A DNA stretch of 64,000 nt from a virus (Duplodnaviria > Caudoviricetes), in IMG/VR virus record IMGVR_UViG_3300027898_000001, one strand, 5' to 3'. The position numbers were made by a program, and so were the translations under genes. The notes beneath the pieces are model-generated. The model had not been told where the DNA came from, searched no databases, and was given only the letters and a program-made list of their open reading frames with translations. Below, piece after piece: positions 3,699 to 26,523 of this stretch. The stretch's first letter is position 1. The number at the start of each line of letters is the position of its first letter.

Positions 3699-4129
3699 TG
3701 GACGTAAAAGAAATTTTAGCTTTGGCTGAAGAAGTTAAACTTATTGTACCATACGCGTGGCGCTACTCTGAACACTACAAGTTAGTACATGCTTCAAATC
3801 AAGGTGTTATCGAAGGTAGTAAAGAAATAGCTGCCGTAAAGTATGATGCGTTTGGTGAATACTTCGATGCTCTACAGCCTGCAAATTTAATACCGTTGTT
3901 GCAGCAAATTCCAGATAATACGGAGCGTGACAAGTTACTGAACTTGTTGCACGACCATAAACTGGATGACGACGGTGAGCACGAACTGATTCAAATGTTT
4001 GCTGCCGACTTCAAGAAACTAGTTCGATCTTATTTTCCAACAGCGATAGATGTTACGCGATTTACCGATGTTGTTAGCAGTATGCAAGATCATACTAGTT
4101 GCTTCTCTCCGTACGTTTGGAGCGACTAA
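3698..4129 (+). CDS. hypothetical protein, possibly Ead/Ea22-like
   Basis: TGATG coupling at 3696-3700; LALAEE...W and GEYFDALQPANLIPLLQQI loosely resemble the Ea22-type a.fiaaanPatvlaLl segment. Confidence 0.45.
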   Translation: MDVKEILALAEEVKLIVPYAWRYSEHYKLVHASNQGVIEGSKEIAAVKYDAFGEYFDALQPANLIPLLQQIPDNTERDKLLNLLHDHKLDDDGEHELIQMFAADFKKLVRSYFPTAIDVTRFTDVVSSMQDHTSCFSPYVWSD

Positions 4130-4130
4130 C

Positions 4131-4138
4131 TGTAAATA
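4131..4138 (+). promoter_or_regulatory. candidate phage promoter motif TGTAAATA
   Basis: Intergenic, 40 nt before ATG 4171; same motif at 18646, 25674 and (minus) 50558-50565. Confidence 0.4.
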
Positions 4139-23569: not shown

Positions 23570-25213
23570 GTGGATATTCATAACGGTAAGGCCGTAGGGT
23601 CTTTGACGTTGGCGTACACACCCACACTCCCAAATCATGCAGCTCGTCTGCAAGACATACAGAGTGCGAGTGCAGCGGCAGCGGCACCAATATTTATCAC
23701 AGGTGTTACTCCAACTTCTTCTGGTAACGTGGGCAGCGAACAGTACGTAGCTAATACTGTTCCTGCTAATATCGTTGTTACCGATTGTGTGAGTGACACC
23801 GCCAATGTGCGTGTGGCTTTCTTAGCGGAAAGTGGTGCTTCCTTCTACAGTATCGGTGTTACTTATAATAGTTCACCTGTTACTTCAATCTCTGAACATC
23901 CTACAGACAAACGTACCTTCGTTGGTTATGTTGACGTAGTTATGTCAGCTTCTGGCACTATCACACTTGTATCATCTACCGGCGCTACGGCGTCTGTTAA
24001 TGTTGTATTGAGTGTTGGTGGCCCAGCAGTTCAATCTCTGAACTTAGGTGCTAACCCAGGTGCTCAGACTGAATTGAAATCGGGTGATACTATCACTATC
24101 TCCGGTGTAATTGATAATACTGCTGTATCTGCTCAAGTGGTTAATTCTGGTGTAGCCGCTAGTGGTTCAATTGCATTAGGCGCTACAGATAGCGGTGGTG
24201 CTGGTTTTAAAACTTTCACAGGTACTGTGACCGTTGCTAACCGCACTGGTACGTTCGGTGTAACTATTACAGGTACTAACTCAATTGGTACTGTTGGTAA
24301 TCAGTTCACATCTTCAGCTACTAAAGTTCTTAATCAGACTTTCCCAACTGTTCCTGCTCCTACTTTCACCTATCCAGGTGGACAAGAAGCTGTCAAGTCT
24401 GGTCAAACAGTTACAGCAACTTCTAGCATTACAAATGCCGACTCTGTTAGCTATGCCTTTACACAAGGTACTGTTGCAGGTCCAGCTGTACTTGCTACGA
24501 ACAAAACTTTAACTTGCACTAACAACGTGTACCAAATAGGCACGAACAACTATACTATCACGGCTACCAAGTCATCTAACGGTGCTGTAACTGTTGTTAA
24601 TAGTTCAGTTGCGTGTGCTGGCGTTGCAGAACAAATCAGCATCAACATTACTGGTTCGCCTGTACGCTTACGCTCTGACGTTGCCGGTGCCGATTATGTT
24701 GTAAACTTAACAAGTAACCAAACTGTTCACAGTACACAAGTTCCTACTTTGGTAGCTCCTGTGGGCACATGGCAAGGTAGTTGGGTACTAGCTGGTAATA
24801 CGTGGTCTCGTACATTACGTATCATCGACGGTGCTACAGCAGGCACAACTGCGTTCACTAGCCTTAGCTTGTTCAACAAAGCATTGGTAGAAACAACTGT
24901 TATTACTGCAGGTGCTTCTTACACAGTTGGTGGTTTCGTATTGCGTACCATTACTTTCAATGCCTTCGCGCAACATATGCCAATTGGTGCTACTGTTGTT
25001 ACTAACAGTAAGGTACATGCGCAATATGCGGGTACAGGTAGTGATTTGACGTATCGTGCAGACACTGGCAATGCGCAAACTAGCTTCACATTGACAAACA
25101 GTGCTGGTGTATTCCAATCAACCGGAGCTACTGACCTGTTCATTAGTGATGCTGCGTTTGCCGGCTCTAACACATCTGGTACCCTCCAGTTGACAATAGA
25201 GGAGCTTGCATAA
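23570..25213 (+). CDS. putative virion structural protein (T/S/G/A-rich, beta-sandwich-like)
   Basis: 547 aa, very T/G/S/A/V/N-rich, Ig-like strand pattern. Confidence 0.65.
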   Translation: MDIHNGKAVGSLTLAYTPTLPNHAARLQDIQSASAAAAAPIFITGVTPTSSGNVGSEQYVANTVPANIVVTDCVSDTANVRVAFLAESGASFYSIGVTYNSSPVTSISEHPTDKRTFVGYVDVVMSASGTITLVSSTGATASVNVVLSVGGPAVQSLNLGANPGAQTELKSGDTITISGVIDNTAVSAQVVNSGVAASGSIALGATDSGGAGFKTFTGTVTVANRTGTFGVTITGTNSIGTVGNQFTSSATKVLNQTFPTVPAPTFTYPGGQEAVKSGQTVTATSSITNADSVSYAFTQGTVAGPAVLATNKTLTCTNNVYQIGTNNYTITATKSSNGAVTVVNSSVACAGVAEQISINITGSPVRLRSDVAGADYVVNLTSNQTVHSTQVPTLVAPVGTWQGSWVLAGNTWSRTLRIIDGATAGTTAFTSLSLFNKALVETTVITAGASYTVGGFVLRTITFNAFAQHMPIGATVVTNSKVHAQYAGTGSDLTYRADTGNAQTSFTLTNSAGVFQSTGATDLFISDAAFAGSNTSGTLQLTIEELA

Positions 25214-25214
25214 T

Positions 25215-25613
25215 ATGTCTACTCCATTTGAAATCTTTGTCCAGACAGAACTGCCAAAACGTCCGTATTTAGATACTGATGTTGCTGCCGAATCCGTCAT
25301 TGTTCGCCGCGGTGTTGGTCCTCGCCAATTGTCCGCAGTGCCATTGACAGAAGGTCAAGTGTTGGGTATGTCTGGTGGTGTGCTTGTTGGTTTGTCCCAA
25401 ACGGCAATCAACTACACTGTGACTACCTTCGCAACTGCTGCAACTACTTGGACTATTACACATGGTAAGAATAACAAAAATGTTATTTTAACTTTGCGTG
25501 ATGGTAGTGACCACGCAGTTGAAGCTGATGACATACAGTACAATGCAAATAGTATTGTTGTCACGTTTGCTGTCGCACAAGCTGGTACTGCTGTAGCCGT
25601 TTATCTAGGTTAA
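25215..25613 (+). CDS. putative structural protein
   Basis: GGAG SD, ATG 25215; C-terminal WTITHG...VEADDIQY..NSIVVTFA..AGTA domain common in phage collar/fibre proteins. Confidence 0.6.
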   Translation: MSTPFEIFVQTELPKRPYLDTDVAAESVIVRRGVGPRQLSAVPLTEGQVLGMSGGVLVGLSQTAINYTVTTFATAATTWTITHGKNNKNVILTLRDGSDHAVEADDIQYNANSIVVTFAVAQAGTAVAVYLG

Positions 25614-25622
25614 TAGCATTGT

Positions 25623-25660
25623 AAAAGGCACTCTGGAGCAATCCTCAGTGCCTTTTCTTT
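25623..25660 (+). terminator. Rho-independent terminator
   Basis: AAAAGGCACT/AGTGCCTTTT 10-bp stem, inner GGA-GCAA-TCC, T-rich tail. Confidence 0.85.
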
Positions 25661-25673
25661 TGTCTATAATAAG

Positions 25674-25681
25674 TGTAAATA
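25674..25681 (+). promoter_or_regulatory. candidate promoter motif TGTAAATA upstream of the structured RNA
   Basis: Between the terminator and the RNA stem; TATAAT also at 25665-25670. Confidence 0.45.
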
Positions 25682-25695
25682 AATATTAATAAAAT

Positions 25696-25826
25696 TTCTT
25701 TGTAGGTGGCTTTAGTTATATGTGAGTGCTGCGGAGCACAGGCGAATTGGCACGGTGGCACATCCTGTATTCGAAGGCAGGCAATTCGTTTCCGATAATC
25801 ATTTAGCTAGAGTCACCTCCAAAGAG
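25696..25826 (+). ncRNA. candidate structured non-coding RNA or leader (multi-branch, ~130 nt)
   Basis: Closing stem 25697-25722 with 25800-25825 (two mismatches, several G-U); hairpin GTGCT-GCGG-AGCAC; arm GGCGAATTG/CAATTCGTT; inner CCTGT-ATTCGAAG-GCAGG; G-U pairs point to the + strand. Confidence 0.65.
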
Positions 25827-25845
25827 CTTTTAAAGGAGATTAACT

Positions 25846-26523
25846 ATGTTTGTACTACCACAACGCTTTAATTTTATATATAATTCATTACAAGCTAAAC
25901 CTGGTGTTAATATACTAGTACCTATGTCAGGTAAAACTAAGCTACCTATGCAATATTACAAGAATGTAGCCGCTAGAGCCACTTCCGAGCGTATGATAAC
26001 GCCTGTTCTCCATGAACTTAGAACCAATGTATTTCGATGCAATGATTTCTCTGTGAAAGAGTCAACTAGCATGAATCATGTACTAGAAGGTATATCGCAT
26101 AGTGTGTACAATATCTTCACTCCACTTTATTTTAGATCTACCATTTTAGAGCAGATATTACCATATACTGATTATGCTTACATTCTAAATGCGGCTATTC
26201 TTGCTCATAAGTTACTTACTGGTGAATCAAATTCAGGATTTAAAGAATTCAACAATTGGTTTCGCATGTACGATTTGCGTACAGAATTAAGTAAAGTAAA
26301 CGGTACTTCTTACTTGAAGATTATTCGTGGTAATACCGAACTGTATTCTTGGCACGAAGAATTATGGACACATGCTGCTGTTTGGTTGATGGATGAGTCT
26401 GATATAATAGGCAACGAAACTCTAGCTCGTAAGTTAAACGTATCTGTAGATAAGTTGCTTGCCGAATTACTTAATATTAGAAATGTAATAGCTCCTCTAA
26501 ACCTGTCCCTAAAGGTACAATAA
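25846..26523 (+). CDS. hypothetical protein
   Basis: AAGGAG SD; 225 aa. Confidence 0.75.
   Translation: MFVLPQRFNFIYNSLQAKPGVNILVPMSGKTKLPMQYYKNVAARATSERMITPVLHELRTNVFRCNDFSVKESTSMNHVLEGISHSVYNIFTPLYFRSTILEQILPYTDYAYILNAAILAHKLLTGESNSGFKEFNNWFRMYDLRTELSKVNGTSYLKIIRGNTELYSWHEELWTHAAVWLMDESDIIGNETLARKLNVSVDKLLAELLNIRNVIAPLNLSLKVQ

What the first reader, a model, noticed from the sequence alone, without database searches (positions are those of the whole stretch)
25696..25826. Unrecognised ~130-nt multi-branched RNA with its own candidate promoter
Seen: a GC-richer island between a strong terminator and the next RBS. It has a closing stem of about 26 positions (TCTTTG-T-AGGTGGCTTTAGTTATATG with CATTTAGCTAGAGTCACCT-C-CAAAGA), a GTGCT-GCGG-AGCAC hairpin, and a GGCGAATTG/CAATTCGTT arm. 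That arm encloses a 14-nt GG-containing bulge and a CCTGT-ATTCGAAG-GCAGG hairpin. Several G-U pairs argue for selection on + strand RNA, not a DNA palindrome. I do not recognise it as tRNA, a riboswitch or a ribozyme. Inference: the GG bulge and TTCGAA loop may form a tRNA-elbow mimic (decoy for anticodon nucleases or a Y-RNA-like partner); it may be a virion or packaging RNA; or it may be a switchable leader, since CTCC 25817-25820 could instead pair with the SD GGAG at 25835-25838.
Basis: partly seen in the sequence, partly recalled or inferred. Interest (0 to 1): 0.8.

Follow-up and report, generated by a model that had tools for sequence, protein, structure and literature searches.

The report
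Portable structured RNA module in phages
The 129-nt island is a real, conserved, branched RNA structure matching no catalogued RNA family; the same core occurs in an unrelated lambda-like phage, in a slot where a sister phage carries a tRNA gene, but its function is still unknown.

Summary
Window 25697-25825 folds on the + strand into a three-way junction on a 22-26 bp closing stem (-51 kcal/mol, z -5.6; minus strand z -1.7). It has 7 G-U pairs and no mismatches. It gives no Rfam 15 hit and no tRNA call.

It is not chance. A core 19-mer scan found one true homologue, L061, in a lambdoid temperate phage from wastewater. L061 has the same architecture. Its core is 49/52 identical and the J3/1 linker 6/6. 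Its closing stem has an unrelated sequence. Twelve base pairs change on both sides and every cell still pairs. A probable third copy (P0133) is seen only as a translated pseudo-ORF.

In both phages the element is a discrete cargo. Three syntenic relatives of this jumbo phage keep the same terminator, TGTAAATA motif and RBS but lack the 129 nt. Sister lambdoid phages hold other long-stem RNAs in the same slot upstream of cro. One holds tRNA-Arg(UCU) there.

The proposed RBS switch is not supported. MITE, YrlA, tRNA and riboswitch readings fail their tests.

Best reading: a new, horizontally portable non-coding RNA domain whose near-invariant apical core is the functional part and probably acts in trans. 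A tRNA-related role is plausible but unproven.

Another window of this scan also noted this same stretch (e1-5402726). The scan has no note of it on other DNA.

The parts
25627..25662 (+). Intrinsic terminator of the sheath/135-aa gene unit (GC-rich hairpin plus U-run)
   Evidence: Read directly. Weak Rfam sRNA hits here only reflect the terminator hairpin. Relatives L003, L004 and L006 have an equivalent hairpin plus T-run.
25674..25681 (+). TGTAAATA motif, a probable phage promoter element, 15 nt before the element
   Evidence: The same motif follows the terminator in L003, L004 and L006. In the window it also lies about 25-35 nt before start codons at 4131, 18646 and 50565(-). Promoter activity is inferred.
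25697..25825 (+). The whole structured RNA element (129 nt), an insertion relative to syntenic relatives
   Evidence: Fold. CM R1 self-hit 156.7 bits. Homologue L061 scores 88.9 bits, E about 4e-21. Absent from the same intergenic site in L003, L004/L005, L006, PaBG and NCTB.
25697..25725 (+). P1, 5' strand of the long closing stem (pairs with 25799-25825)
   Evidence: Helix 1 has 21 pairs: 9 changed on both sides against L061, and all are paired. Sequence identity to L061 is only 10/23.
25726..25739 (+). P2 hairpin, 5 bp, with GCGG loop identical in both copies
   Evidence: 2 of 5 pairs are compensatory and the loop is identical in L061.
25740..25749 (+). P3, 5' strand (pairs with 25782-25791)
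   Evidence: one compensatory pair (G-C to U-A), one A-U to G-U change, and two G-U pairs kept.
25750..25763 (+). 14-nt asymmetric bulge with GG dinucleotides
   Evidence: Identical in L061. It appears to vary in the probable third copy P0133.
25764..25781 (+). P4 hairpin, 5 bp including a U-G pair, with 8-nt loop AUUCGAAG; its 3' strand runs straight into the P3 3' strand
   Evidence: identical in L061. The back-translation of P0133 allows two compensatory changes.
25782..25798 (+). P3 3' strand and the J3/1 linker that is identical in both copies
   Evidence: J3/1 is 6/6 identical to L061.
25799..25825 (+). P1, 3' strand of the closing stem
25835..25838 (+). Shine-Dalgarno GGAG of the 225-aa gene, not sequestered by the element
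   Evidence: Fold of 25684-25875.
25846..26523 (+). Downstream 225-aa ORF of unknown function whose leader carries the element
   Evidence: No Pfam or PHROG family. The syntenic 190-199 aa gene in relatives, whose first residues resemble this ORF's (read by eye), has no element in front.

Best explanation
Window 25697-25825 is a genuine structured non-coding RNA domain of a family not yet catalogued. It is a three-way junction (P2 hairpin with GCGG loop; P3 arm carrying a 14-nt GG bulge and the P4 hairpin with a UUCGAA-containing loop; a conserved J3/1 linker) mounted on a long double-stranded closing stem. It is a portable cargo module. It was inserted between the TGTAAATA promoter motif and the RBS of the 225-aa gene in this jumbo phage. 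The same core sits on a different stem in the early leader of an unrelated lambdoid phage. Shown: the fold, the strand specificity, covariation, the near-identity of the core in two unrelated phages, and the insertion or replacement boundaries. Inferred: it is co-transcribed with the downstream gene. Inferred: the long stem insulates it from the mRNA and is a likely RNase III-type processing site. Inferred: the released or embedded core acts in trans by binding a widely conserved cellular partner, with tRNA-handling machinery as the leading guess, and does not switch the downstream gene.
For: Fold: -51 kcal/mol, z -5.58 on +; z -1.70 on -. There are 7 and 10 G-U pairs in the two copies and no non-standard pair. 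Homologue L061 was found by a core 19-mer and scored 88.9 bits, E about 4e-21, by a single-sequence CM. It folds independently to the same architecture (z -4.2). On the CM alignment 100% of cells pair against about 40% in slid registers, and 12 pairs change on both sides. Core identity is 49/52 and J3/1 6/6, against about 40% in P1. Insertion: L003, L004/L005 and L006 (sheath 59-61% aa) keep the terminator, TGTAAATA and short leader but have an 84-95 nt gap in place of the window's 232 nt. The L006 leader reads aatt-c-gcttttgagg where the window reads aatt-[element]-gcttttaaagg. The CMs find no copy in 8 IMG/VR relative records (6 rated complete), PaBG and NCTB, or in 47 sheath loci. In the lambdoid group, homology to L061 stops at 3985-3981, the element's 5' edge, and resumes at 3787 or 3760. 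The slot holds other long-stem RNAs or tRNA-Arg(UCU) plus a 60-aa ORF. The SD is not sequestered.
Against: Only two nucleotide copies are in hand, and the alignment used for pair counts was fitted to the model. No transcript data exist, so expression, processing and trans action are all inferred. The two copies differ in what follows them (an RBS after 10 nt; a terminator after about 95 nt), which fits a trans role but does not prove it. The P4 loop has 8 nt, not the 7 of a tRNA T-loop. No tRNA, tmRNA or Y-RNA model scores the element. An ORF reads the core in the same frame in all copies, so a peptide cannot be fully excluded. Prokaryote genomes were never scanned with the conserved core.
Confidence: 0.5

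Rival explanations
1. It is a cis-acting leader element. It acts as a 5' stabiliser or RNase III processing signal for the downstream mRNA, or as a put-like processive antitermination RNA that acts on the transcribing polymerase.
For: Both copies lie just downstream of a promoter-like site and on the sense strand of the next gene. In L061 an intrinsic-terminator-like hairpin plus T-run, read by eye at about 3778-3755, lies between the element and cro. This is the layout expected for an antiterminator RNA. Long stems of 22 bp or more are classical RNase III sites, as in T7 early mRNA (established knowledge).
Against: Relatives express the same genes from the same motif without it. The downstream genes and platforms differ completely between the copies. 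A stabiliser hairpin would not need a near-invariant 50-nt branched core. A polymerase-binding RNA is unlikely to serve both a lambdoid phage and a jumbo phage of the PaBG/phiKZ lineage, which is expected to use its own polymerases (inference). The same lambdoid slot can hold a tRNA.
Confidence: 0.2
2. It is a small self-cleaving ribozyme or other catalytic or ligand-binding RNA of a new class, carried as a selfish or processing module.
For: It has a highly conserved junction core with freely varying peripheral stems. It occurs in phages, where many small ribozymes occur (established knowledge). It matches no known class.
Against: No resemblance to any ribozyme or riboswitch model in Rfam 15, even at E up to 10. 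The core appears to vary in the probable third copy, including the bulge. Nothing in the sequence tests catalysis.
Confidence: 0.08
3. The conserved stretch encodes a 40-50 aa peptide, and the RNA structure is secondary.
For: ORFs read the core in the same frame in the window (GTG 25722, 49 aa) and in L061 (ATG 4049, 53 aa). A called 42-aa ENA protein, P0133, is 64% identical over 36 residues and starts with the same seven residues.
Against: The starts, stops and lengths of the three ORFs disagree. The window's start codon lies inside the stem, has no properly spaced SD, and the ORF overruns the next gene's SD and ATG. Window-to-L061 differences fall 1, 4 and 5 at codon positions 1, 2 and 3 (my count from the A5 rows), which does not look like purifying selection on a protein. 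Those differences form complementary pairs, and P1's 5' strand lies outside the window's ORF yet pairs perfectly. No Pfam family. All 26 testable pairs stay possible in P0133's back-translation, against 15-20 in slid registers.
Confidence: 0.07
4. It is a DNA-level element: a MITE-like transposon with terminal inverted repeats, a recombination site, or a single-strand replication signal.
For: It is a 129-bp discrete insertion bounded by 26-nt inverted repeats and GC-richer than its surroundings. In L061 it lies near a replication module.
Against: Between the copies the 'inverted repeats' are the least conserved part and the interior the most, the reverse of a transposon. No target-site duplication is visible. 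There is no second copy in the window or in the relatives' genomes. A terminal-repeat pattern has no match in 185,579 species genomes. 17 G-U pairs would be A-C mismatches on the other strand.
Confidence: 0.05

Closest known systems
Bacterial and phage Y RNAs of the YrlA type (Ro60/Rsr-bound RNAs; PMC4201824)
   Same: Both are about 100-130 nt, have a long stem formed by the 5' and 3' ends, and carry an apical branched domain with a T-loop-like hairpin and GG-containing loop. Both also occur in phages.
   Different: There is no Rfam hit. The arm order differs: YrlA runs stem, V, T, acceptor-like, D, stem, while this element runs stem, P2, P3 enclosing the bulge and P4, stem. The Ro-binding motif GNCGAAN(0-1)G is absent in L061 and mis-spaced here. 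No TROVE gene is seen among the ten neighbours scanned.
Phage-encoded tRNAs and viral tRNA-like structures (elbow mimics; PMC4810234)
   Same: The P3-plus-P4 stack has the connectivity of an acceptor/T-arm minihelix: the P4 3' strand runs directly into the P3 3' strand. It also has a UUCGA loop word and a GG-containing strand where the D loop would be. A sister lambdoid phage carries tRNA-Arg(UCU) in the same slot.
   Different: It has no cloverleaf, no anticodon arm and no CCA. The loop has 8 nt, not 7. The stack is 14-15 bp, not 12. ARAGORN and the Rfam tRNA and tmRNA models do not score it.
Processed immunity RNAs in early leaders of temperate phages (P1/P7 c4 RNA, P4 CI RNA)
   Same: Both are small structured RNAs encoded just downstream of an early promoter and ahead of a terminator, as in L061. 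In those phages the RNAs are cut out of the leader by tRNA-processing enzymes (established knowledge).
   Different: There is no match to the Rfam C4 model. No target repeats were identified. The same core in a jumbo phage with no sign of lysogeny here argues against an immunity-specific role.
RNase III processing hairpins of phage polycistronic mRNAs (T7 R1.1 type)
   Same: Both have a long, imperfect double-stranded stem in an intergenic leader on the sense strand.
   Different: T7 sites are simple hairpins with an internal loop. This element carries an 80-nt conserved three-way junction on top.
HK022 put RNAs (cis-acting antitermination)
   Same: Both are structured RNAs placed promoter-proximally and ahead of a terminator in a lambdoid early operon (the L061 layout).
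   Different: put consists of two simple stem-loops of about 70 nt. There is no sequence likeness. The jumbo-phage copy has no terminator behind it.

Membership tests
tRNA (RF00005) and tmRNA tRNA-like domain | Cloverleaf, or acceptor/T-arm with CCA, that scores with ARAGORN or the Rfam models | tested here: not met
   ARAGORN finds 0 genes in the window and in L061. No tRNA or tmRNA hit on the element at E up to 10. The positive control, tRNA-Arg in L070, scored 55.5 bits.
YrlA / Y RNA | Match to the Rfam Y-RNA models | tested here: not met
   No hit at E up to 10 on 25500-26000, and none on L061 at E up to 0.1.
YrlA / Y RNA | GNCGAAN(0-1)G motif on the 5' strand of the stem (PMC4201824) | tested here: not met
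   The window has GGCGAA followed by UUG, a two-base spacer, and it lies in P3, not the basal stem. L061 has GGCUGA at the same place.
YrlA / Y RNA | Encoded next to a Ro60/TROVE gene | tested here: inconclusive
   None of the ten neighbouring proteins has a TROVE domain, and none of the ten L061 proteins does. The rest of the 260-kb genome could not be read.
MITE / inverted-repeat transposon | Terminal repeats conserved between copies, target-site duplication, many copies | tested here: not met
   The ends are about 40% identical while the interior is 94%. No duplication at the flanks. Single copy in the window. None in relatives. The terminal-repeat pattern is absent from genome contigs.
Riboswitch or RBS-switching leader | Alternative pairing between the aptamer's closing stem and the expression platform | tested here: not met
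   P1 is 22-26 bp. The SD is free of the element in the MFE and centroid folds of 25684-25875. The two copies have unrelated downstream platforms.
Known small ribozymes and other Rfam 15 families (4227 models) | Covariance-model match | tested here: not met
   0 matches at gathering score in the 64-kb window. Nothing overlaps the element at E up to 10.
T-loop / tRNA-elbow motif | A five-nucleotide T-loop (U-turn with reverse-Hoogsteen 1-5 pair) docked to a GG-bearing strand | not testable with these tools
   A UUCGA word in the P4 loop and GG in the bulge are present. The loop has one extra 5' base. No RNA 3D tool was available.
RNase III substrate | About two turns of near-perfect double-stranded RNA | tested here: met
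   The closing stem has 21-25 pairs in the window and 22 in L061. Cleavage itself was not testable.

The most novel reading that the evidence does not exclude
The near-invariant apical core is a portable tRNA-related module, either a mimic of the tRNA elbow or a device that docks onto it. Unrelated phages would graft it onto any long stem and express it early, to occupy or divert a host factor that handles tRNA. Candidate targets are a tRNA-cleaving defence nuclease, RNase P, or a modification or repair enzyme. This would explain why the module can replace a real tRNA gene in the same lambdoid cargo slot.
Probability: 0.15. Interest if true: 0.85.

Novelty: new variant of a known kind. Interest (0 to 1): 0.62.

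Why it matters
Structured RNAs of phages are far less charted than their proteins. This motif passes the usual first tests: a strong fold, strand specificity and compensatory changes. It is also shared by two phages with no other visible kinship, with a core about 94% identical while the supporting stem has been completely rewritten. That pattern indicates a sequence-specific partner common to different hosts. Its interchange with a tRNA gene in one phage lineage gives a concrete, testable lead into phage manipulation of tRNA biology or RNA-based counter-defence. It also exposes a cargo slot in a group of lambdoid phages whose leader RNA carries a hypervariable apical domain.

Tried and rejected
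- **DNA and protein searches from the window.** blastn of the window region against INPHARED phages found nothing. The downstream 225-aa protein had no tblastn match in phages and no relatives in IMG/VR. Single-protein scans with the sheath found nothing in IMG/VR or JGI metagenomes.
- **Exact-pattern scans that found no homologue.**
  - The P4 18-mer in IMG/VR gave only a chance coding hit, L007.
  - Bulge plus loop in IMG/VR gave nothing.
  - Loop plus J3/1 and P2 plus P3 patterns in IMG/VR gave nothing.
  - The terminal-repeat pattern in genome contigs gave nothing.
  - A P2 19-mer in genome contigs gave 3 chance hits. That 19-mer lies in a part that later proved variable, so prokaryote genomes were never scanned with the conserved core.
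- **blastn of the elements.** Nothing in phages, E. coli genomes or plasmids.
- **Reads and runs.** Read laying on three freshwater runs gave no cover of the element in the non-source runs. No RNA holder is listed for either copy.
- **The rest of the phage's own 260-kb contig could not be read.**
  - No genome is held for the window.
  - Walking by the look-up of encoding contigs returned a place without DNA.
  - Earlier notes about similar promoter-proximal elements 44-49 kb upstream therefore stay unverified.
- **Lambdoid relatives.** Relatives of L061 found through the 161-aa ORF and through Cro carry no copy.
- **Scaffold-pattern scan of IMG/VR.** It returned mostly an unrelated 107-nt coding repeat. 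No locus had the core.
- **Readings considered and rejected.** These were tRNA, YrlA, C4-type RNA, MITE, riboswitch/RBS switch and sigma-54 promoter. In the sigma-54 case the GG-to-GC spacing in the bulge is 3 nt too short. A T-box-like double T-loop could not be tested.
- **Fold scan of other gaps.** The 13 other intergenic gaps of the window that I scanned (all over 85 nt) showed nothing comparable. The best z was about -3.4, using mononucleotide shuffles.

Full report
**1. The observation**

RNAfold returns them as the minimum-energy structure. There is a closing stem of 21 pairs plus a 4-bp extension. There is a 5-bp hairpin with loop GCGG. A 9-10 bp arm encloses a 14-nt bulge and a 5-bp hairpin with loop AUUCGAAG. 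A 7-nt linker leads back to the closing stem.

The energy is -51.0 kcal/mol, z -5.58, and no shuffle out of 200 folds as well. The reverse complement reaches only -31.7 kcal/mol, z -1.70. Seven of the 47 pairs are G-U and none is non-standard. The structure therefore belongs to the + strand, which is the sense strand of all neighbouring genes. No other gap among the 13 I scanned folds comparably.

**2. Setting**

The window is part of a 260,131-bp metagenomic contig held by a freshwater run that may be its source. It is a jumbo phage distantly related to Pseudomonas phage PaBG and phage NCTB, with sheath identity of 45% and 40% aa.

The local order is as follows:
- tail sheath (23570-25213);
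- a 135-aa protein (25206-25613);
- a terminator hairpin with U-run;
- TGTAAATA (25674-25681);
- the element;
- SD GGAG (25835-25838);
- a 225-aa ORF with no family (25846-26523);
- a KMPT-N/SprT-like peptidase;
- HD and Nudix enzymes.

TGTAAATA also precedes other start codons in the window by 25-35 nt.

**3. Not a known RNA**

Rfam 15 gives no match at gathering score in the whole window. Nothing overlaps the element even at E up to 10. ARAGORN finds no tRNA.

**4. It is an insertion here**

Three metagenomic relatives with 59-61% sheath identity (L003, L004/L005, L006) have the same gene order. They share the same terminator followed by TGTAAATA. Only 84-95 nt separates the 132-aa gene from the next gene, against 232 nt in the window.

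In L006 the leader reads aatt-c-gcttttgagg where the window reads aatt-[129 nt]-gcttttaaagg. The element's limits are therefore 25697 and 25825. Removing it restores a leader of normal length. No target-site duplication is visible.

PaBG and NCTB also lack it at this place. A single-sequence covariance model (R1) and a two-sequence model (R2) find no copy in several sets:
- eight IMG/VR relative records, six of them rated complete;
- PaBG and NCTB;
- 47 sheath-anchored IMG/VR loci;
- elsewhere in the window.

**5. A true homologue in an unrelated phage**

A scan of metagenome contigs with a 19-mer from the bulge/P4 region gave eleven loci. Ten share only the 19-mer. The eleventh is L061, a 5.3-kb contig held by wastewater runs. 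It matches R1 end to end on its minus strand, 3987-3872, at 88.9 bits and E about 4e-21. It folds on its own to the same architecture (-52 kcal/mol, z -4.2).

On the model-guided alignment every cell forms a standard pair, against about 40% when partners are slid by 1-3 columns. Twelve pairs differ on both sides: nine in P1, two in P2 and one in P3.

Identity is 49/52 across P3-bulge-P4-P3 and 6/6 in the linker, but about 40% in the closing stem. L061 has 10 G-U pairs and no mismatch.

The alignment is fitted to the model and there are only two sequences. The statistics are therefore indicative only. Two closing stems of unrelated sequence that both pair perfectly are nonetheless hard to explain without selection for structure.

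**6. What L061 is**

Its genes are a P22-Cro-like regulator, a DnaD/O-like initiator, a lambda-P-like helicase loader, DUF7220 and a DNA methyltransferase. It is a lambdoid temperate phage.

The element lies on the cro strand, in a 540-nt gap between a divergent 161-aa ORF and cro. It sits about 90 nt downstream of a sigma-70-like promoter (4114-4087). A terminator-like hairpin, which I read by eye at about 3778-3755, lies about 95 nt after the element and precedes cro.

**7. The lambdoid slot is a cargo slot**

Close relatives of L061 were found through the 161-aa ORF and through Cro. They are 80-93% identical to L061 on both sides. Homology stops at L061 3985-3981, the 5' edge of the element, and resumes at 3787 or 3760. 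None carries the element.

Between these edges each carries something else.
- L070 has tRNA-Arg(UCU) plus a 60-aa ORF. ARAGORN finds the tRNA and Rfam scores it 55.5 bits.
- L082 has an 80-nt long-stem RNA. Its interior contains D-loop-like and T-loop-like words.
- L085 has two long-stem elements in tandem.
- L078/L080 and L072/L079 share a third kind of interior.

In the relatives the long stem starts with GGCAACCTTAAG or a close variant, while L061 has GGCAACCTGAGAGG. An 8-bp hairpin with a GCAA tetraloop precedes the stem in L061 and L072, and in the IMG/VR loci L123 and L142. Its stem covaries between L061 and L142.

In that lineage a conserved leader RNA therefore carries a hypervariable apical domain. 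In L061 that domain is the core shared with the jumbo phage.

**8. A probable third copy, and the coding question**

Both copies have an ORF that reads the core in the same frame. The window's ORF starts at GTG 25722 (49 aa) and L061's at ATG 4049 (53 aa).

A search of 1.84 billion representative proteins with the window's ORF gave two hits. One is a repetitive 3334-aa protein that I take as spurious. The other is P0133, a 42-aa ENA protein that is 64% identical over 36 residues and has the same first seven residues.

Its contig could not be fetched. Its back-translation leaves all 26 testable pairs possible, against 15-20 of 26 in slid registers. Four forced base changes lie opposite free third positions that could compensate. 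P0133 also shows that the bulge is not invariant.

I read these ORFs as by-products of a conserved RNA, for these reasons:
- starts, stops and lengths disagree between the three;
- the window's start codon is buried in the stem without a properly spaced SD;
- the window's ORF overruns the next gene's SD and ATG;
- nucleotide differences are not concentrated at third positions, and they form complementary pairs;
- the 5' strand of P1 lies outside the window's ORF;
- neither ORF matches a Pfam family.

**9. What it does**

These points are shown:
- it is a strand-specific, covarying, branched RNA domain;
- its apical core is almost unchanged between two unrelated phages;
- it is a discrete cargo in both.

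These points are ruled out or unlikely:
- **RBS switch.** The SD is free of the element and P1 is far too stable.
- **Partnership with the KTSC/SprT genes.** Relatives keep those genes without the element.
- **MITE.** The ends are the least conserved part, and there is no duplication and no second copy.
- **YrlA.** No model hit, a different arm order, and the Ro-binding motif described in PMC4201824 is absent.

The rest is inferred. The RNA would be made as part of the leader. The long stem keeps it from interfering with the mRNA and offers two turns of double-stranded RNA, the classical RNase III substrate. The core would then act through a partner that is conserved across hosts.

The connectivity of P3 and P4 resembles an acceptor/T-arm stack. 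The P4 3' strand continues directly into the P3 3' strand, with a GG-bearing strand on the other side. The UUCGA loop word and the exchange with a tRNA gene in the lambdoid slot add to this. tRNA-handling machinery is therefore the leading candidate. This is a lead and not a result. The loop has 8 nt, no tRNA-type model scores the element, and no 3D test was possible. The review PMC4810234 describes both elbow mimics and elbow-docking double T-loops. The present data cannot tell which, if either, applies.

**10. Novelty and score**

This is a new RNA motif with two sequenced members and a probable third. It resembles known kinds (Y-RNA-like or tRNA-like phage RNAs on a long stem) without belonging to them. 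The near-identity of a 50-nt core across a jumbo phage and a lambdoid phage, and its interchange with a tRNA, are unusual. The thin sampling and the lack of any expression data limit the claim.

Noticed in passing
L061 4010-3872 (-); L072 3860-3300 (-); L078, L079, L080, L082 2160-2362, L085 2015-2360; IMG/VR loci L123 2097-2202 and L142 10019-10116: A group of lambdoid phages carries a conserved leader RNA upstream of cro. An 8-bp hairpin with a GCAA tetraloop (stem covaries) is followed directly by a long stem starting GGCAACCTTAAG or a close variant. The apical part of that stem is hypervariable, with at least five unrelated interiors. It matches no Rfam family. It may be a new RNA scaffold with exchangeable heads.
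   Followed up: partly
L070 1338-1414 (-): tRNA-Arg(UCU) followed by a 60-aa ORF occupies the same promoter-to-terminator slot that holds the structured element in L061.
   Followed up: yes
L085 2940-3000 (+) and L061 3190-3125 (-): Downstream of the cro-adjacent small gene both phages carry what looks like the 3' part of a tRNA: a perfect T-arm, GCGGG-TTCGATT-CCCGC in L085, then an acceptor-like strand ending CCA. A strong sigma-70-like promoter follows (TTGCAT, 17 nt, TATAAT). It could be an attachment-site core or another tRNA-like signal.
   Followed up: no
window 25674-25681, 4131, 18646, 50565(-); L003 about 2141, L004 about 7087, L006 about 5156: TGTAAATA recurs 25-35 nt before start codons and directly after terminators. 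It is kept at the syntenic site in three relatives. It is a likely promoter element of this phage group.
   Followed up: partly
window 25708-25713 with 25809-25814; L061 equivalent in P1: Inside the otherwise unrelated closing stems both copies share a 6-bp block (GGCUYU paired with AGAGUC) with the same G-U pair. It lies at different distances from the junction. It could be chance (roughly 1 in 20 by my estimate) or a recognition site.
   Followed up: no
P0133 (ENA contig of 3,632 bp, not fetched): A called 42-aa protein that is almost certainly a translated third copy of the element. It suggests that the 14-nt bulge varies while the UUCGA-type loop and the linker are kept.
   Followed up: partly
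same genome, about 44-49 kb before the window start (earlier notes e1-5402697, e1-5402707, e1-5402703): First-stage notes describe other elements of 93-140 nt. Each has a closing helix and two hairpins, and each lies just after a TGTAAATA or GTGTAAACA motif and before an RBS. This is the same layout as here. I could not read that DNA, so whether they are related is open.
   Followed up: no
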